This document shows, piece by piece, positions 8,453-14,569 of a stretch of 64,000 nt of DNA. The notes under the pieces were generated by a model that saw nothing but the letters and a program-made list of their open reading frames with translations, had not been told where the DNA came from and did not search any database. Each line of letters opens with the position of its first letter. Within the stretch, counting starts at the first letter, position 1. The position numbers and the translations under genes were made by a program. The DNA comes from a virus (taxonomy: Duplodnaviria; Heunggongvirae; Uroviricota; Caudoviricetes), in IMG/VR virus record IMGVR_UViG_3300015177_000008, positions 1 through 64,000 of that record. One strand, 5' to 3'.

Positions 8453-11400
8453 TTAGTTACGTTGAGTGTTTGGGTTGAGTGATCCGCCAGGGCGTTTTTC
8501 TTGAGCGATAGTCTCAAGTACGACGGCTTTCACCCGTTTAGCAGCATTGTTCCATATGCTTTCTGTATCGCCGGATTCTGTCGTGCTACCGTCACTATGG
8601 ACGTTGATCTCAATTGATACAGGAGAAAGAACATTTCCGCCTCCACTCATACCATCGGTACTGAGCGTTACAGGGATTGTTCGGCCATCAGGCAATGGAA
8701 CATACGCCTCATTCATAGAACCTTCCCCAAACAACGCTAATTGAGGCGAGTTAGCAATACCGCCTTTCTGGTATGCCCGGAGCGGGATCACGCCGTCTTT
8801 TCCGAATATTCCTCCATTTGCAAACTTCGGGATTGCAGGAATGCCTTTAGTTCCGTCAGCCACACTGCTAGTTGCGGTTTTAGCAGAGCTTGATGTCACG
8901 CTGTCGAAACCACCGCCAGCCCAAGCTGAAACAAGACCAGATGCAACCGTTGCTCCAAAACTCAACCACTTATTACCAGAGCCGGAAGCATTAGCTCCAA
9001 GCATTGCAAACGCGGCAGACAGCGCGCCGGTAACAGAGCTGAGGTTCTGCATCGAAAAGATGGAGTCCTTCACGGCTTTTGTCTCGGCATCTTTGGCTTC
9101 AGTGCTATCAAATAGCCCTGATACCCAGCTACCAATCGCATTTGTTGCAGTGCCAATTGCGCTGGTGGTCTGCTGTGTTGTTTGCCCCAATCCAGTTACC
9201 GAACTGGACGTCTCCTTCGTGGCTTCTCCTACCGACTTGTCGCCGTTAACAGTGTTGCCCATTCGTACCCCTTGATTGGCAACGGCGGAAGCAACCCCGG
9301 TCAGCAAATTACCACTCTGTGAACTACCAGCTGCGGTGGTTCCCATCCCCAACATGTTCATTAGAGGCAGCGTGATCTGCGACTTCACGACCATATTGGT
9401 GATATCTTTCAAAATGGACTGAGATAGGCTGGAGAAGCTCATCTTCCCGTTAATAACGAAATCAGTCAGGACATCAGTTAAGCCACTAAACAAATCAGTC
9501 CAGGTGCTTTCGATCTGCTCTGCCAAGTTTTCGTATTCCAGTGCCAACTTCTGCGTCGCAGTCCCCGTCTCTTTAATAAGCGCGGTATTGCCAGCAGCAA
9601 TCAGTTGATTGATTTTCTTTGTATAAAGCGCCACAACTTTAGGATCAGACGCCTCATCACGAAGTTCTATCAACGCTTTGAGATTGCGGTTGTAAGTGTC
9701 TTCGAAATCAGCAACTTTCTCTTCACGAGACGGCGTATAGCCAGCACTAATAATGGAATCCGCCTCCGGTGCCCAAGTGGAGATCATCTGCTCAACATTG
9801 CGGCGATTAAACATCTCGCGATATTCAGGTGTCGCATTTTTGAGGTCTTCAAGACGTTTTTTCGCCTTGTCGATCATCTCTTGAGTGATGAACTCGTTAG
9901 GAACCGCATTAGCCAAATCTGTCAGCGATTTCGTTGTATCGCGAAGAGACTGATCAAACGATACCGTAGCCTTAGAGCTTTCACCCATTTGCCCCATAAG
10001 CTGATCGGCTTTATCCAGAGACTTCTGATATCCGGCCGCCAGTTTCTGTTGCGCTGCCTGTTCTTTCTTGGCCGCACGCTGCGAGGCGTTAGCTGATCGT
10101 TGGGCTGCTTTCTCGGCAGCTGCTGCATCCTGTTCACGAGCTTTAGTCAGTGCAGCAATGGCTGCGGCACGCTCTTCATCGCTCATTTTCTCCAGAGAGC
10201 TGGCGCTGGATGCTTTCTGCAAATTAAGCTGCGTCTTGAGTTGTTTAGGCCCAATAATCGGCTTACCTTCGAAGTCCATCATCGGAGTGCCGTCAGGCAG
10301 AGTACGCTGATAAGTCGCAGAATCCATCTGGTTTCGCATATATTGCGCCAGCGCCTTCTGAGCTGCTTTATCAGTTGTACCTAACCCCAGAACATCTCCA
10401 TTGATTGACACTAAGCCATTACCACTTTTGGCCGCGTTATCCCTCTTAAACTCTGCCTGAGTCAGTTCCTGAGCAACGACTTCCAAATGCTCCTGATAGC
10501 CACGAATACTTCCTTGCAGTTTCTGAATCTGCTCGGTATTTCCTTCCTTTTTCGCTTTTTCAAGCTGATCATTAAGAGTCGCGATTTGCTTCTCGGTCGC
10601 ATTCTTACGAGAAGAAAGTGAATCAACCAGTTTTTGCGCAGGCTCCAGATAGCTTTTGTTTACCGTTTCACGTAACGGTGCCAATAGCTTGTTCTTTTCG
10701 TCATCCGAAAGTGAACCGTCATCCTTGATTTTCTGGATTTTCTCCAGAGCCTCCTGACGAGCTTTCACGAACGTTGCCGCAAAGTCTCTATTCTCTTCGA
10801 GTATTTTCTCTATCTGGGATTCTGCCGTCTCTTTTGCCAGACGTTTGGCTACAGCCAAATCCCCTCTGGCAATAGTTTCATTGGTTTCATCGCGTTTCTT
10901 ACGAAGTTCATTTAGCTCATTTTCTATTCGCTTACGTTCATCATGATTAATCTTTACTGTAGTTCCGGTCATACCCGGCCCATAAACCACCTTTTCGCCA
11001 GATTTTAACTCTTGTTCCTTTTGCGTGATTTGTTGCTCAAGACGCGCTTTATACTCGGCCATCTGTGCACGTTTAGCCGCCGTCATCGCTTCTGGTATTT
11101 TCCTAATCTCGTCAACGACCTTTGAAGTTTCGCTACGAAGCATGGTCATATACGTGATTAAGCCAGCAACAGCGGTCATTGCAGCAGTGAAAACAAAACC
11201 TATCGGATTCGCCGCAATAAACGCAGTCAGGCCAGCAAAAGCGCCTTTAAGCCCCGTAATCGCCCCACGGATGGCGAAAATAAGAGAGGGGATCGGAGCC
11301 AGCCCCATACGTGCCGCACGATTGAATCGAGTTACTGCTGTAGCGCCGAGGTTAAATGGAGTCTGTATGGCGGTCGCCATCGTGGCAAAGGTGCTAACCA

Positions 11401-13039
11401 TCTGGCTGCCAGCACCAACTACCCCCATGATCCCTGCTCGCATCAGTTTGAACGCAACCATCGCGGCCACGACCTTACCGAGATTAATTACCAGCTCTTG
11501 GTTCTTTGCTAACCATTGAGCAAGCTGACGCAACCCATCGATTGCCGTCGTTAACCCCGAACCTAAAGAATTGGCAAACGAGATCCCTTCGGCGCTATTC
11601 ATGATTGAAGCCAGTTCTTTCATCCCCTTTGATAGAGAATCCAGATATCCGGCCTGACCAACTCGATCAGCAAATAACGTGAATGACGTCTGAAGTTGCG
11701 CCAGCGCACCTGTGTAGGTTTGCATCATGTCTTTCGCTGCGTTCTCGTTCTCCGCACGCAGACCAACAAACATCAGAGACAACGCCTGCTTTGCCTCAAC
11801 CGTACCGCTGGCAACGGCTTTAGTCAGTTCCCCCATAGTGATGCCTGCGGCGTCTGCCATTGCCTGCATCGCGTTAGGAACGGCTTCACCTAATTGCTGA
11901 CGTAGCTCTTCCATTGACACAACGCCCTTACCGGACATCTGCTGAACGGCCACAGCCGCACGTTTCAACAGCTCACTATCACCACCAAAACGAGCAACGG
12001 AGTCCACCAGCGCCTTCAGAGAACCATCGGTTGGATCTAAGCCAGCAGAACGAAACTTCACGAAGGAGTCTGTTAACGCCTGCATCGCGAACGGCGCATT
12101 TTGAGCCATGTCTACGATGTACTTCATATCATCAGCGGCAGCCTGGCCAGGGTTGGACTTCTCCTTATTCAACCCTCGAAGCATCACCCGCATACGTTCC
12201 ATTTCGGCCGCAGCTTCAACAATAGGCTTCTGCCACCCAAACATGATGTCAGTAACCGTTCTGGCTGCATCTCCGATCTCGCCAAGCAGGAAAATGTTGC
12301 CACGAAGGCCAGAGAATATACCTCCTTCGTTATTTTTACCGCTGTGGCCAGAAGCGCCGCTACGCTGCCTGCTACCGCTACCACCATCACCACTTCCAGA
12401 TGTACGAACACGTACCGGCTTGCTAATCAGTTGCTGACGCCCGATAACTTCGTCCATCTGCTCACGAACCTTTTTCAGTCCCTCGGCAGCCTGAGTCGTT
12501 GTGACACCCCAATTACTGAGTCGCTTCGTCGTGGTATTAAGGCGCGTATTCATGCCACTCACGGACGCAGAGGCTTCTTTGACCTCCGTATCAAAGCGGC
12601 TTGCGCTTTTGCTTGCATAGGTCGCCCAATCAGAGAAATCATTTAGCTCTGATTGCACTTTACGTAATGACGCGGTGAGTTTATCTACTGAAGAAGTTGT
12701 CGTATCGACGCGCTCAATTAGGGCTTTAAGACCAGAATTGAGGCTGGTGATGTTGCCACGCATTTTACGCGTAGCATCTGAAGCAAGCTCAAAACCGGCA
12801 GCTACATCCTGTAGTTTATCTGCCGTAGAATCGAGCTTGCTTTCCAGAACGCCAATGATACGGGCGACCGAACCCAAAGAGCGTTCAAAGGTTTGGATTT
12901 TTTGAGCAGGCTTTGTTACCTGCTCACCAAATCGAGTAAGCAGTTTCCCCGCACGATCGATTGACGCTGTAAACTGTTTGTCTTCCAGCGACAGGATAAA
13001 CTCTACGTTTTGTGACATTCCCTTGTCATCCTCTGCCAA
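8453..13039 (-). CDS. tail tape measure protein
   Basis: 1528 aa, long coiled-coil central region, hydrophobic segments, Gly/Ser-rich C-terminus; position between G/T and M. Confidence 0.85.
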   Translation of the reverse strand: MAEDDKGMSQNVEFILSLEDKQFTASIDRAGKLLTRFGEQVTKPAQKIQTFERSLGSVARIIGVLESKLDSTADKLQDVAAGFELASDATRKMRGNITSLNSGLKALIERVDTTTSSVDKLTASLRKVQSELNDFSDWATYASKSASRFDTEVKEASASVSGMNTRLNTTTKRLSNWGVTTTQAAEGLKKVREQMDEVIGRQQLISKPVRVRTSGSGDGGSGSRQRSGASGHSGKNNEGGIFSGLRGNIFLLGEIGDAARTVTDIMFGWQKPIVEAAAEMERMRVMLRGLNKEKSNPGQAAADDMKYIVDMAQNAPFAMQALTDSFVKFRSAGLDPTDGSLKALVDSVARFGGDSELLKRAAVAVQQMSGKGVVSMEELRQQLGEAVPNAMQAMADAAGITMGELTKAVASGTVEAKQALSLMFVGLRAENENAAKDMMQTYTGALAQLQTSFTLFADRVGQAGYLDSLSKGMKELASIMNSAEGISFANSLGSGLTTAIDGLRQLAQWLAKNQELVINLGKVVAAMVAFKLMRAGIMGVVGAGSQMVSTFATMATAIQTPFNLGATAVTRFNRAARMGLAPIPSLIFAIRGAITGLKGAFAGLTAFIAANPIGFVFTAAMTAVAGLITYMTMLRSETSKVVDEIRKIPEAMTAAKRAQMAEYKARLEQQITQKEQELKSGEKVVYGPGMTGTTVKINHDERKRIENELNELRKKRDETNETIARGDLAVAKRLAKETAESQIEKILEENRDFAATFVKARQEALEKIQKIKDDGSLSDDEKNKLLAPLRETVNKSYLEPAQKLVDSLSSRKNATEKQIATLNDQLEKAKKEGNTEQIQKLQGSIRGYQEHLEVVAQELTQAEFKRDNAAKSGNGLVSINGDVLGLGTTDKAAQKALAQYMRNQMDSATYQRTLPDGTPMMDFEGKPIIGPKQLKTQLNLQKASSASSLEKMSDEERAAAIAALTKAREQDAAAAEKAAQRSANASQRAAKKEQAAQQKLAAGYQKSLDKADQLMGQMGESSKATVSFDQSLRDTTKSLTDLANAVPNEFITQEMIDKAKKRLEDLKNATPEYREMFNRRNVEQMISTWAPEADSIISAGYTPSREEKVADFEDTYNRNLKALIELRDEASDPKVVALYTKKINQLIAAGNTALIKETGTATQKLALEYENLAEQIESTWTDLFSGLTDVLTDFVINGKMSFSSLSQSILKDITNMVVKSQITLPLMNMLGMGTTAAGSSQSGNLLTGVASAVANQGVRMGNTVNGDKSVGEATKETSSSVTGLGQTTQQTTSAIGTATNAIGSWVSGLFDSTEAKDAETKAVKDSIFSMQNLSSVTGALSAAFAMLGANASGSGNKWLSFGATVASGLVSAWAGGGFDSVTSSSAKTATSSVADGTKGIPAIPKFANGGIFGKDGVIPLRAYQKGGIANSPQLALFGEGSMNEAYVPLPDGRTIPVTLSTDGMSGGGNVLSPVSIEINVHSDGSTTESGDTESIWNNAAKRVKAVVLETIAQEKRPGGSLNPNTQRN

Positions 13040-13412
13040 ATATTTGCATCAGTTGCTCTTTGGCGTCAGGGTCTGCCTTATCCTGGCTTGGATCGTAGAC
13101 TTTATCTGTTACGACTGGTCTTCCAATCCTGAGTTGCAAACCCTCCATGAACGCCTTCACAGCCTCGCCATCCGCCTGGGACGCACGAGCGACTTGTAAG
13201 TTGCGGACATCCTCTTCCGCACGCAGACGGTCTATATTGCGACTGAGCATCCAGAACATCGTGAGAGGGATGTTCAATAGCTCTAATGGCGACACAGCGT
13301 AGTGAGCAACTACACGACTGAAATAGAATCCGAGATCTATTGAAACGGTCCTTGTCCCGGATTCATCGCGGGAAATTACTTTGCCCCTTCGCCAGCCGCT
13401 TTTTCGTTTTCT
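13026..13412 (-). CDS. T-like -1 frame extension of the tail assembly chaperone (G-T fusion product)
   Basis: Frame is open from about 13412 (by my translation) and is -1 relative to the G-like ORF that stops at 13376; conserved G/GT arrangement immediately upstream of the tape measure gene. Confidence 0.45.
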   Translation of the reverse strand, partial: RKRKSGWRRGKVISRDESGTRTVSIDLGFYFSRVVAHYAVSPLELLNIPLTMFWMLSRNIDRLRAEEDVRNLQVARASQADGEAVKAFMEGLQLRIGRPVVTDKVYDPSQDKADPDAKEQLMQIFGRG

Positions 13413-13693
13413 TCATCAATCACTTCCATAGCGAAGGTGAAGATCTGCTGGAGTTGCGGAACAGTCAGTTTTTCAAGAACTTCGTCAGGTACTGAAGGGA
13501 TAACCTTACGAACCAGATCTGCATAAGCTGTCACTTGCTCAACAGGAGACATGTTCATGAGATCTTTTCCTTCCATCTGCTTGATGGAAACGAACAGACC
13601 TACCGTCATTTCAACGATGGGATATTCCTGACCGCCAAATTTGATGCTTTTCTTCGGAGGCAGAATGGAATCTAGATCGAGTAATTTGGTCAT
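13376..13693 (-). CDS. tail assembly chaperone (lambda G-like)
   Basis: 105 aa acidic protein between major tail protein and tape measure, with overlapping -1 frame ORF downstream. Confidence 0.55.
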   Translation of the reverse strand: MTKLLDLDSILPPKKSIKFGGQEYPIVEMTVGLFVSIKQMEGKDLMNMSPVEQVTAYADLVRKVIPSVPDEVLEKLTVPQLQQIFTFAMEVIDEENEKAAGEGAK

Positions 13694-13748: not shown

Positions 13749-14495
13749 TTAATCTGCGGGGTTAATCGTTACTGACTTAGTTGCCTTCTTACCACCGCTA
13801 TTGCTGGTGAAGGAGATATTTGTAGAACCCTGCGCCACACCACGTACCAGACCCGTTTGATCTACCGTGGCCTTTTCCTGGTCTTCGGATTCCCAAACAC
13901 CGGTTTTGTCTGCGGCATCAGCTGGAGTGATTTCGGCTGTCAGTTGCACAGTTTCTCCAGCTTTTACGGTTGGAGATTCCGGTGAGATCGACACAGTTTT
14001 TACCGGTTTAGGACCGCTCATTTTGCCCAGAACGCCTTCATCATCCGGGTATGCGCTGAACTGAACAGAGAACACACGAACATCATCAGACTGGTAGGTC
14101 ATAGTGAAGTTGCCCGCGGTTGCCGCTTTCGGGATGGTCAACACATAGTCGGTGGTGTCCTGCGGAGTCAGAACCAGCTCCTTCGCCACATCAATCAGGT
14201 TAACGCCCTGTGCAGATGTGATCGTGACAGAGTTGTCATCTTCGCTCAGAGTAGAACCAGGCATCAGGTCAACCATGTTTTGGAGTACAGACTCAGCCAG
14301 AGGCGCGGTGATGGTAATGTTGCGCCCCTGAACTAATTCGGAAATTACGGTCTGCCCCAACTGATCGACGGTGACTTTCAGCGTTTCAGTGGCTACTTCA
14401 ACCTGAACACCACCTTTGGTGTAACCCAAATCCACACCACCAAACGACACCTTACAGGCACCAAGTTTGATGTTTTTTACATGGGTATTAGACAT
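13749..14495 (-). CDS. major tail protein with C-terminal Ig-like (Big_2) domain
   Basis: Start moved to internal ATG at 14493-14495 (AGGAG RBS 10 nt upstream; ORF track start 14531); C-terminal Big_2-like segment as in lambda V. Confidence 0.7.
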   Translation of the reverse strand: MSNTHVKNIKLGACKVSFGGVDLGYTKGGVQVEVATETLKVTVDQLGQTVISELVQGRNITITAPLAESVLQNMVDLMPGSTLSEDDNSVTITSAQGVNLIDVAKELVLTPQDTTDYVLTIPKAATAGNFTMTYQSDDVRVFSVQFSAYPDDEGVLGKMSGPKPVKTVSISPESPTVKAGETVQLTAEITPADAADKTGVWESEDQEKATVDQTGLVRGVAQGSTNISFTSNSGGKKATKSVTINPAD

Positions 14496-14569
14496 TGATG
14501 GAAAACTCCTTTTTCCGTTAATTCTACGCATTCATTGCGCTAATAGTAAGTATATACTTACTAATTGAG

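What the first reader, a model, noticed from the sequence alone, without database searches (positions are those of the whole stretch)
13026..13693. G/T-type tail chaperone pair with a non-canonical slippery region
The T-like frame is -1 relative to the G-like ORF and, by my translation, opens only about 36 nt before the G stop, consistent with programmed -1 frameshifting. The canonical lambda heptamer GGGAAAG is absent; the candidate sites are GAAAAAG and GGGGCAAAG near 13380-13405, neither in canonical X-XXY-YYZ register.
Basis: partly seen in the sequence, partly recalled or inferred. Interest (0 to 1): 0.4.

Follow-up and report, generated by a model that had tools for sequence, protein, structure and literature searches.

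The report
Tail chaperone frameshift at last codon
This SSU5-like phage-plasmid most likely makes its longer tail-assembly chaperone by a small fraction of ribosomes slipping back one base on the last lysine codon (A_AAG) just before the stop codon; this is an ordinary, well-known phage strategy, but no public record I looked at annotates it for this family.

Summary
On the minus strand a 105-codon G-like ORF (13693-13376) lies between the major tail protein and tape-measure genes. It is overlapped by a -1 frame that opens at 13412 and runs 118 codons from the slip codon to a stop at 13028-13026.

Comparing about 170 related loci resolves the shift site.
- GAAAAAG is not the conserved site. 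It is lost in relatives at 70% identity or less, and in 47 of 104 loci a -1-frame TGA cuts it off from the T frame.
- N_G[C/T]A_AAG followed at once by TAA or TAG is kept in every locus.
- The terminal Lys codon is AAG in 12 of 12 lineages, although synonymous sites elsewhere are nearly saturated.
- The T frame is under purifying selection from its second codon (dN/dS 0.12-0.25). It has no conserved start codon or Shine-Dalgarno sequence upstream of its invariant segment.
- The G model resembles annotated tail assembly chaperones.

Best reading: a lambda G/GT-type pair expressed by low-level -1 slippage of tRNA-Lys on A_AAG next to the stop. This is the tetranucleotide class known from IS3, IS1222 and B. 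subtilis cdd. It would give a 222-aa GT fusion.

Verdict: a new, unannotated member of a known kind; modest interest. Nothing here is experimentally shown.

The parts
13749..14531 (-). Major tail protein gene (260 aa) with a C-terminal Big_2 Ig-like domain fused in frame
   Evidence: ORF list. Pfam Big_2 E 5.8e-26. PHROG major-tail and Ig families.
13376..13693 (-). G-like tail assembly chaperone ORF: 105 aa, 11.7 kDa, stop TAA 13378-13376
13379..13385 (-). Proposed -1 shift site G_GCA_AAG. The operative part is the tetramer A_AAG at 13382-13379, the last sense codon of G.
   Evidence: N_G[C/T]A_AAG_TA[A/G] is kept in 104/104 loci and in 63 of 65 complete metagenome loci, the other two being indel-disrupted but still carrying the motif. 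A -1-frame TGA two codons upstream in 47/104 loci leaves no other site. The terminal Lys codon is AAG in 12/12 lineages and the preceding third base is always A.
13376..13378 (-). G stop codon TAA, immediately 3' of the shift tetramer (a possible 'shifty stop')
   Evidence: The stop is always adjacent, and always TAA or TAG, in all loci.
13026..13382 (-). T-like -1 frame: AAA 13382-13380 through 118 codons to TGA 13028-13026. The predicted GT fusion is G residues 1-105 followed by VISRDESG..., 222 aa, 24.9 kDa.
   Evidence: dN/dS is 0.12-0.25 for codons 2-43 in the diverged pairs, and up to 0.33 in the two closest pairs, which have only 12-16 differences; this matches the rest of T. There are in-frame 3-nt indels. 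The only conserved in-frame ATG is codon 45 (13250), and it has no Shine-Dalgarno sequence. PHROG 1131, 'unknown function'.
13399..13405 (-).
   Evidence: It is replaced by GAA GCC in relatives at 70% identity or less. In 47/104 loci a -1-frame TGA separates it from the T frame. A_AA.A is a poor tetramer in E. coli (PMC4066793).
13357..13364 (-). 5' arm (GAAUCCGG) of a conserved RNA stem downstream of the shift site. In the window it extends to 13355.
   Evidence: It pairs with 13333-13326. All cells are paired in 17 distinct sequences, with one compensatory U-A to G-C change and nine wobble-preserving single changes. It is also kept in the Klebsiella lineage L103. It starts 14 nt after AAG, which is longer than the usual 5-9 nt spacer.
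13326..13333 (-). 3' arm (UCGGAUUC) of the conserved stem. In the window it extends to 13335.
8453..13018 (-). Tape measure protein gene (1521 aa), starting 7 nt after the T-frame stop
   Evidence: Pfam TMP_3 E 4.3e-27 and Tape_meas_lam_C E 6.1e-13. ORF list.

Best explanation
ORFs 13693-13376 and 13382-13026 (minus strand) are the tail assembly chaperone pair of an SSU5-like siphovirus phage-plasmid. They are functional analogues of lambda gpG and gpGT.

Most ribosomes terminate at TAA 13378-13376 and release the 105-aa G protein. A small fraction slip back one base when the single E. coli tRNA-Lys (anticodon mnm5s2UUU) sits on the last sense codon AAG (13381-13379) and re-pairs with AAA (13382-13380). 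Those ribosomes then read GUA AUU UCC ... and make a 222-aa G-T fusion with the junction ...AAGEGAK-VISRDESG...

The site belongs to the tetranucleotide or hexanucleotide class (NNA_AAG). It is not a tandem X_XXY_YYZ heptamer.
- The preceding codon is always GCA or GUA.
- The 0-frame stop always follows directly. It may promote slippage of peptidyl-tRNA-Lys while the A site waits for a release factor.
- A conserved 8-10 bp stem 14 nt downstream may contribute.

Shown here: the geometry, the conservation, the exclusion of other sites, selection on the T frame, the absence of an independent start, and a chaperone-like fold for G.

Inferred: the slippage itself, its efficiency (expected at the per-cent level or lower), whether the lysyl-tRNA slips in the A or the P site, any role of the stop codon or the stem, and the lambda-like roles of the two parts (in lambda the G part binds the tape measure and the T part recruits the major tail protein; PMC5009743).
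For: 1. Position. The pair lies between the major tail protein gene and the tape measure gene, and this order is kept in all relatives examined.

2. Shift-site mapping.
- 104/104 loci end G with N_G[C/T]A_AAG_TA[A/G] and carry a 118-120-codon -1 frame. The one exception is an error-ridden contig, L099.
- 63 of 65 complete metagenome loci do the same.
- In 47/104 loci a -1-frame TGA lies two codons upstream of the AAA, so the shift can only occur within GAN-GNA-AAG.
- GAAAAAG is absent from relatives at 70% identity or less.

3. Synonymous-site conservation across 12 lineages.
- Only 4 of 29 amino-acid-invariant degenerate columns keep one codon, and only 8 of 104 columns keep their third base.
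- The last two codons keep A and G in all 12 lineages.
- The three other invariant Lys columns are mixed and mostly AAA; the terminal Lys is AAG in 12 of 12.
- The penultimate codon switches Ala to Val (GCA to GUA) while keeping the third-position A.

4. The T frame is coding from the junction.
- dN/dS is 0.12-0.25 for codons 2-43 in the diverged pairs (up to 0.33 in the two closest pairs, which have few differences), against 0.08-0.16 for the rest of T.
- Indels are in frame.
- The invariant block SID[LF]GFYFSRV lies upstream of every conserved start codon.

5. No independent start.
- The only universally conserved in-frame ATG is codon 45, with anti-SD duplex energy of 0.7 to -1.5 kcal/mol.
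- Public gene calls for T begin at many different places, giving products of 69-116 aa.
- Contrast: the only other A_AAG-stop in the window followed by a long -1 ORF (59706-59703) is a GTGA start/stop overlap with a strong AAGGAG Shine-Dalgarno sequence.

6. The G model matches annotated tail assembly chaperones (Foldseek BFVD top hit E 2.8e-4, TM 0.64).

7. The same design recurs in the lineage. In relatives the major tail protein gene ends in C_CCA_AAG plus a stop, with the Ig-like domain in the -1 frame.

8. Literature.
- A_AA.G is by far the most shift-prone -1 tetramer in E. coli (5.6% with the IS3 pseudoknot) and is used by IS elements (PMC4066793).
- NNA_AAG sites operate in B. subtilis cdd and in IS1222, and work best when the 5' codon's tRNA has high wobble propensity (PMC5009743).
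- From my own knowledge: GCA, GUA and CCA are all read by tRNAs carrying cmo5U34 in E. coli.
Against: - There is no direct evidence for the fusion protein.
- Without a stimulator, A_AA.G tetramers were barely above background in reporter assays (about 0.15% against 0.11%; PMC4066793). A stimulator is probably needed, and none is established here.
- The conserved stem begins 14 nt after the motif, outside the usual 5-9 nt range. Its energy is not exceptional (z = -0.34 for the 86-nt region). Its conservation is partly confounded by coding constraint.
- No conserved Shine-Dalgarno-like element lies at a stimulatory distance upstream (sequences).
- The base after the stop is U in most loci (UAA-U or UAG-U). 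From my own knowledge this is an efficient termination context in E. coli, which argues against a slow stop.
- Neither G nor T has sequence-family support as a chaperone. There is no Pfam hit, and PHROGs 893 and 1131 are 'unknown function'.
- The fold search with the T model was uninformative.
Confidence: 0.77

Rival explanations
1. The shift occurs mainly at GAAAAAG (13405-13399). Peptidyl- or aminoacyl-tRNA-Lys on AAA (13402-13400) would slip to AAA (13403-13401), giving a fusion with eight different junction residues (KSGWRRGK in place of KAAGEGAK).
For: In this window and in 53/104 loci the -1 frame is open back to 13412, so the product would be viable. A_AAA is in register. It lies 8 codons before the stop, a distance at which collisions with a terminating ribosome raised -1 shifting about two-fold in reporters (PMC6815119).
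Against: In 47/104 loci, including SSU5 itself, a -1-frame TGA lies between this site and the T frame. The motif is replaced by GAA GCC in relatives at 70% identity or less, while the T frame is retained. A_AA.A is the weakest of the six active tetramers in E. coli (0.26% even with a pseudoknot).
Confidence: 0.05
2. There is no frameshift. T is made as a separate small protein (74-89 aa) from an internal start, as public records annotate it: GTG 13295, ATG 13259 or ATG 13250.
For: All annotated relatives list it this way. An ATG at T codon 45 is conserved in all lineages.
Against: No Shine-Dalgarno sequence precedes any candidate start. GTG 13295 and ATG 13259 are not conserved. The 42 codons upstream are under the same purifying selection as the rest, contain the invariant SIDLGFYFSRV block, have only in-frame indels, and contain no stop in about 170 loci. 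Gene callers disagree on the start.
Confidence: 0.08
3. Termination-reinitiation: ribosomes that finish G at TAA scan locally and restart in the -1 frame at a non-canonical codon near the stop (for example AUU 13376-13374). This would give a full-length T that is not fused to G.
For: The T frame is conserved right up to the stop codon, which fits any mechanism that starts translation there. AUU overlaps the stop in most loci.
Against: The AUU is replaced by AUC, GUU, GUA or GAA in other lineages. No Shine-Dalgarno sequence is conserved upstream. This model does not explain strict conservation of the AAG codon and of the preceding third-position A. In the known G/GT systems the G moiety of the fusion is functionally required (PMC5009743).
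Confidence: 0.04
4. Transcriptional slippage: RNA polymerase adds or drops an A in an A-run, producing a subpopulation of mRNAs in which G and T are in frame.
For: A-runs are present: AAAAA at 13404-13400 and AAA at 13382-13380.
Against: The conserved run is only 3 A. From my own knowledge, productive slippage in bacteria generally needs about 7-9 identical bases. The 5-A run is not conserved.
Confidence: 0.02

Closest known systems
Phage lambda gpG/gpGT tail assembly chaperones (-1 frameshift at G_GGA_AAG)
   Same: Both are a small acidic ORF directly between the major tail and tape-measure genes. In both, a -1 frame extension of about 120-145 codons lacks its own start and ends at the tape-measure start. 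In both, the A-site-type codon is AAG slipping to AAA, followed by a GU-starting Val codon (lambda sequence read). Low-level shifting is expected in both.
   Different: The heptamer is G_GCA_AAG or N_GUA_AAG, so the first tRNA cannot re-pair. The stop codon follows immediately, whereas in lambda it lies five codons downstream. There is no detectable sequence similarity to lambda G or T (BLASTP E 0.75 and 4.4) and no Pfam family.
A_AAG tetranucleotide / NNA_AAG hexanucleotide -1 sites: IS3, IS1222 (G_CGA_AAG), B. subtilis cdd (A_CGA_AAG)
   Same: In all of them the only re-pairing tRNA is tRNA-Lys on A_AAG. In all of them the 5' codon ends in A and is read by a tRNA with extended wobble. E. coli data rank A_AA.G as the best tetramer (PMC4066793, PMC5009743).
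   Different: IS3 relies on a pseudoknot a few nucleotides downstream. Here the only conserved structure is a simple stem 14 nt away, and the 0-frame stop is adjacent. The 5' codons are GCA or GUA rather than CGA. The biological context is a phage tail chaperone, not a transposase or cytidine deaminase.
Structurally characterised tail assembly chaperones (for example HK97, PDB 2ob9) and proteins annotated as such in BFVD
Ig-like domains appended to phage structural proteins by programmed frameshift
   Same: In relatives of this element the major tail protein gene ends in C_CCA_AAG plus a stop, and the Big_2 domain lies in the -1 frame. This is the same slip-at-the-last-Lys-codon design.
   Different: That site is a canonical heptamer and lies in a different gene. 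In this window the Ig domain is fused in frame, so no shift is needed.

Membership tests
G/GT-type frameshifted tail assembly chaperone pair of long-tailed phages | The two ORFs lie directly between the major tail protein gene and the tape measure gene | tested here: met
   Major tail protein 13749-14531, G 13376-13693, T frame 13026-13382, tape measure 8453-13018, all on the minus strand. The same order is seen in relatives.
G/GT-type frameshifted tail assembly chaperone pair of long-tailed phages | The downstream ORF overlaps the 3' end of the upstream ORF in another frame and lacks its own translation start | tested here: met
   -1 frame with a 34-nt overlap. No conserved start or Shine-Dalgarno sequence upstream of the conserved block. 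Purifying selection acts from codon 2.
G/GT-type frameshifted tail assembly chaperone pair of long-tailed phages | A slippery sequence lies in the overlap and is conserved among relatives | tested here: met
   A_AAG in register, kept in 104/104 plus 63/65 loci, with synonymous-site conservation.
G/GT-type frameshifted tail assembly chaperone pair of long-tailed phages | A G-T fusion protein is made at a low ratio to G and is required for tail assembly | not testable with these tools
   This needs a Western blot or mass spectrometry, plus genetics.
G/GT-type frameshifted tail assembly chaperone pair of long-tailed phages | The upstream protein has a tail-assembly-chaperone fold | tested here: inconclusive
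Lambda gpG / gpT sequence families | Significant sequence or profile similarity to lambda G and T | tested here: not met
   No Pfam-A family at E up to 0.01 for either part. BLASTP against lambda G gives E 0.75 and against lambda T E 4.4.
Canonical tandem-slippage heptamer X_XXY_YYZ | Both triplets are homopolymeric, so both P- and A-site tRNAs can re-pair in the -1 frame | tested here: not met
   The first triplet is GGC, AGC, CGC, AGU or CGU across loci. Only the second triplet (AAA) qualifies.
Z_ZZN tetranucleotide -1 shift sites (A_AAG class) | A_AAG with AAG as a 0-frame codon, inside the two-frame overlap | tested here: met
   AAG 13381-13379 is the last G codon, and the preceding base is A in all loci.
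Z_ZZN tetranucleotide -1 shift sites (A_AAG class) | A stimulatory element (downstream structure, upstream SD-like sequence or slow A-site codon) raises shifting above background | tested here: inconclusive
   An adjacent stop is always present. A conserved 8-bp stem with one compensatory change exists, but it lies 14 nt downstream. There is no conserved SD-like element. No Rfam match was found.

The most novel reading that the evidence does not exclude
SSU5-like phage-plasmids may use a compact, reusable 'slip on the last lysine codon' cassette: NNA_AAG immediately followed by the stop, with the 5' codon read by a cmo5U tRNA. In relatives the cassette appears at two tail genes, G/GT and major-tail-protein/Ig-domain. 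At the G/GT site the adjacent stop codon, together with a conserved stem at an unusually long 14-nt spacing, would replace the classical heptamer plus closely spaced structure. That would be a natural, conserved -1 'shifty stop' signal, with peptidyl-tRNA slippage in the P site, in a phage structural module.
Probability: 0.25. Interest if true: 0.5.

Novelty: new member of a known kind. Interest (0 to 1): 0.33.

Why it matters
- Annotation. SSU5-like phage-plasmids are common in Escherichia, Salmonella, Klebsiella, Kluyvera and Cronobacter, and a Yersinia pestis contig also carries one. In the four annotated records I opened (SSU5, Cyrano, ST13-OXA48phi12.3, PhiR41_1), G and T are two 'hypothetical proteins' and no frameshift is marked. 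Across the protein database, the homologues of T are all unnamed or 'hypothetical' and begin at many different start positions. Recognising the frameshift assigns both ORFs a function and a correct product: join 13693..13379 with 13379..13026 on the minus strand.
- Mechanism. The family offers a clean, naturally conserved example of a tetranucleotide A_AAG shift site abutting a stop codon in a phage. It could be used to test how much an adjacent stop and a distant stem contribute to -1 slippage.
- Tools. Frameshift predictors that require XXXYYYZ would miss it.
- Limit. It does not change the understanding of tail assembly.

Tried and rejected
- Pfam on G and on the T frame: no family.
- PHROGs: only 'unknown function' families 893 and 1131.
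- Rfam over the whole window: no match.
- tRNA scan: no phage tRNA that could modulate Lys decoding.
- Small hairpin CCCG...CGGG, 6 nt after the slip site (13372-13356): rejected, because it is broken in the Photorhabdus, L095 and L103 lineages.
- Outer helix CGCGAU/GUCGUG proposed by RNAalifold on close relatives: not kept in the L092, L095, L098 and L100 lineages.
- Downstream partner for the invariant CCCGCG (a possible pseudoknot): none found within about 185 nt downstream in any lineage.
- Upstream SD-like stimulator: the window's GAAGGGG is replaced by GAAGAAG, GAAGACG or GACGACG elsewhere, and the conserved GGNGA lies only 6 nt from the tetramer, not 10-14 nt (sequences).
- GAAAAAG as the conserved site: rejected.
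- Fold search with the T-domain model (pLDDT 67): only one uncharacterised homologue was found, so it was uninformative.
- Literature: no held paper links SSU5 to a tail chaperone frameshift. The hexanucleotide-motif paper (Licznar et al. 2003) is not held, so I relied on its summary in PMC5009743.
Full report
**What is there**

The window is an SSU5-like phage-plasmid. The 901 bases around the finding are 99% identical to Escherichia phages Cyrano and CMS-2020a and 89% identical to Salmonella phage SSU5.

All relevant genes are on the minus strand:
- a major tail protein gene with a C-terminal Big_2 Ig-like domain (14531-13749; Pfam E 5.8e-26);
- a 105-codon ORF, 'G' (ATG 13693 to TAA 13378-13376);
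- a -1 frame, 'T';
- a 1521-codon tape measure gene starting at ATG 13018 (TMP_3 and Tape_meas_lam_C).

The T frame opens after two TGA codons (13418-13413). Its first sense codon is at 13412, and it runs to TGA 13028-13026.

- The frames overlap by 34 nt of sense codons, or 37 nt with the stop.
- GGGAAAG is absent.
- GAAAAAG (13405-13399) and GGGGCAAAG (13387-13379) are present.
- One correction: G_GCA_AAG (13385-13379) has its A_AAG half in exactly the canonical register and differs from lambda's G_GGA_AAG by a single base.

**Is it a chaperone pair?**

Sequence families give no help. Neither part has a Pfam hit. PHROGs 893 and 1131 are 'unknown function'. Neither part resembles lambda G or T by BLASTP.

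The four annotated relatives that I opened list two separate 'hypothetical proteins' and no ribosomal slippage. Database homologues of T are all unnamed or 'hypothetical' and begin at many different positions, giving products of 69-116 aa. That is the usual sign of an ORF without a real start.

The positive evidence is positional and structural.
- The major tail protein, G, T, tape measure order is the defining arrangement of the G/GT system.
- An AlphaFold model of G (pLDDT 72) has as its best match in the viral structure library a protein annotated as a tail assembly chaperone (E 2.8e-4, TM 0.64). At least ten more so-named proteins are in the top 50.
- The T model was of low confidence and matched nothing informative.

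**Where does the shift occur?**

I collected relatives from four sources:
- the viral collection (80 loci);
- reference genomes (7 loci, including Yersinia pestis, Kluyvera and Photorhabdus);
- contigs encoding divergent G or T homologues;
- metagenomes (68 loci).

G identity to the window goes down to 56%.

In 104 of 104 loci from the first three sources, G ends with N_G[C/T]A_AAG_TA[A/G], and the -1 frame then runs 118-120 codons. The single exception is an error-ridden contig. 63 of 65 complete metagenome loci do the same. The other two have indel-disrupted G ORFs but still carry the motif.

- GAA AAA G is replaced by GAA GCC in every lineage at 70% identity or less.
- In 47 of 104 loci, including SSU5 itself, a synonymous GGC to GGT change creates a -1-frame TGA only two codons before the AAA. 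A shift at GAAAAAG would then terminate at once.

In those genomes the only place a ribosome can change frame and reach T is within the last three codons of G. Of those codons, only AAG to AAA allows cognate re-pairing. The GGGG run is not conserved either; relatives have GAGG, GAAG or GACG.

**Is the conservation more than amino-acid constraint?**

Yes. Across 12 lineages synonymous sites are close to saturation (dS about 1-2).
- Only 4 of 29 amino-acid-invariant degenerate columns keep a single codon.
- Only 8 of 104 columns keep their third base.
- The last two codons keep A and G throughout.
- The three other invariant Lys positions are mixed and mostly AAA, whereas the terminal Lys is AAG in 12 of 12.
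- The penultimate residue changes between Ala and Val while its codon stays GNA.
- In the window only 3 of 190 open frames of at least 80 codons end in A_AAG plus a stop.

**Is T translated from the junction?**

- The 42 T-frame codons between the junction and the first widely shared ATG have dN/dS of 0.12-0.25 in the diverged pairs. In the two closest pairs, which have only 12-16 differences, it reaches 0.33. The rest of T gives 0.08-0.16.
- Those 42 codons contain the invariant block SID[LF]GFYFSRV.
- They show only in-frame indels.
- GTG 13295 and ATG 13259, the starts used in public annotation, are not conserved.
- The only universal ATG (T codon 45, 13250) has no Shine-Dalgarno complementarity.
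- As an internal control, the one other place in the window where an ORF ends in A_AAG plus a stop and a long -1 ORF follows (59706-59703) is a plain GTGA start/stop overlap preceded by AAGGAG. That is ordinary translational coupling.

**Mechanism**

The site belongs to the tetranucleotide (Z_ZZN) or hexanucleotide (NNA_AAG) class.
- In E. coli, A_AA.G is by far the most shift-prone -1 tetramer. It reaches 5.6% with the IS3 pseudoknot but only about 0.15% without a stimulator, and it is used by IS elements (PMC4066793).
- NNA_AAG sites operate in B. subtilis cdd (A_CGA_AAG) and in IS1222 (G_CGA_AAG).
- Their efficiency rises when the 5' codon is read by a tRNA with high wobble propensity (PMC5009743).
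- From my own knowledge, GCA and GUA (here) and CCA (see below) are all read by cmo5U34 tRNAs in E. coli. That fits the strict GCA/GUA alternation.

I cannot tell whether lysyl-tRNA slips in the A site, with Ala- or Val-tRNA mispaired in the P site, or as peptidyl-tRNA in the P site while the stop codon awaits a release factor. Both routes give the same product: G(1-105)-VISRDESG..., 222 aa, 24.9 kDa, against 11.7 kDa for G.

The invariably adjacent TAA or TAG suggests a contribution from the stop. However, most loci have U after the stop. From my own knowledge that is an efficient termination context, and it would keep the shift rare, as the lambda system requires (G:GT about 30:1; PMC5009743).

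**Possible stimulators**

- No conserved SD-like element lies at a stimulatory distance.
- Rfam finds nothing.
- A stem GAAUCCGG/UCGGAUUC (13364-13357 with 13333-13326; 10 bp in the window) is fully paired in 17 distinct sequences. It shows one compensatory U-A to G-C change in Photorhabdus and nine wobble-preserving single changes, and it clearly beats slid controls. It persists in the 56%-identity Klebsiella lineage, with G·U changed to A-U.
- Against a role for the stem: it starts 14 nt after the motif, beyond the usual 5-9 nt. Its folding energy is unremarkable (z = -0.34). Both arms encode conserved residues. I therefore treat it as a candidate only.
- A closer hairpin and an outer helix were not conserved.

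**Supporting parallel**

In the more distant relatives (L092, L095, L098, L100, L103) the major tail protein gene stops after ...GCC/AGC CCA AAG, and the Big_2 Ig-like domain lies in the -1 frame. That is a canonical C_CCA_AAG heptamer, again directly followed by the stop, and it has a predicted long-range stem starting 6 nt downstream. In the window the Ig domain is fused in frame. So this lineage uses 'slip on the terminal AAG' at a second tail gene, which makes the same reading of the G/T junction more credible.

**Rivals**

- A shift at GAAAAAG can be at most an auxiliary route in lineages, such as this one, where the -1 frame is open that far. It happens to lie 8 codons before the stop, a spacing at which ribosome collisions raised -1 shifting about two-fold in reporters (PMC6815119).
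- Independent initiation of T, termination-reinitiation and transcriptional slippage each fail to explain one or more of three observations: the conserved AAG and preceding A, selection on the linker, and the lack of a start signal.

**Verdict**

It is a G/GT-type programmed -1 frameshift. Its site can be placed on the last sense codon of G (A_AAG, 13382-13379) next to the stop.

Frameshifted tail chaperones are near-universal in long-tailed phages. Many lack the canonical heptamer (PMC10885494), and A_AAG sites are well studied. This is therefore a new, so far unannotated member of a known kind, not a new mechanism.

I found no paper linking SSU5-like elements to this frameshift in the held library. 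All mechanistic steps beyond the sequence and comparative evidence remain to be tested.

Noticed in passing
L092:1685, L095:1686, L098:1678, L100:1676, L103:1852 (relatives); the corresponding window region is about 14010-13990 (-): In distant relatives the major tail protein gene ends in C_CCA_AAG plus a stop (TAA, TAG or TGA), and the Big_2 Ig-like domain lies in the -1 frame (PKV[KSA]VTGVTV...). RNAalifold predicts a long-range stem (UGACGGG...CCCCGUCA) starting 6 nt downstream. This looks like a second programmed -1 frameshift. In the window the Ig domain is fused in frame (…GGT CCT AAA CCG GTA AAA…).
   Followed up: partly
window 13735-13710 (-): Between the major tail protein gene and G lies a 9-bp GC-rich hairpin (AGAGGCUCA-GGA-UGAGCCUCU) followed by CUUUU. 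Its energy is -17.8 kcal/mol (z = -3.5). The stem shows clear covariation across lineages (GAGGCUC/GAGCCUC, GAGGGUC/GACCCUC, GGCCCA/UGGGCC, UAUGGCUC/GAGCCGUA). It is probably a partial intrinsic terminator or an mRNA-stabilising hairpin that sets the ratio of major tail protein to downstream genes. The consensus terminator scan did not list it.
   Followed up: partly
window 59706-59703 (-), ORFs 60497-59703 and 59706-59158: This is the only other ORF in the window that ends in A_AAG plus a stop and has a long -1 ORF behind it. It is an ordinary GTGA start/stop overlap with a strong AAGGAG Shine-Dalgarno sequence 7 nt upstream. By its N-terminal motif (my reading, not tested) the downstream 182-aa protein looks like a DnaQ-type exonuclease. 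It served as a negative control.
   Followed up: yes
window 13380-13375 with 13310-13305 (-): RNAalifold on 13 lineages pairs the end of the slip site plus the stop codon (AGUAAU) with GUUGCU about 70 nt downstream, enclosing the conserved stem. L103 shows a matching A-U to G-C change (UAG stop with GCUGCU). This might sequester the slip site, or it may be chance. It was not tested further.
   Followed up: no
L086 (Yersinia pestis NCTC5923 contig), L087-L088 (Kluyvera), L090-L091 and L094 (Photorhabdus), L103-L104 (Klebsiella): The same G/T module, with the same slip site, occurs on contigs of about 100-110 kb in several enterobacterial genera. This is consistent with the wide spread of SSU5-like phage-plasmids. 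Two contigs labelled as Bacillota or 'Fimivivens' MAGs (L085, L089) also carry it, which probably reflects binning contamination.
   Followed up: no
Homologues of the T frame in the protein database: Gene callers give T homologues many different N-termini (69, 74, 77, 83, 86, 89, 108, 109 and 116 aa), and every source leaves them unnamed or calls them 'hypothetical protein'. PHROGs 893 and 1131 could be re-labelled as tail assembly chaperone G and T parts.
   Followed up: partly
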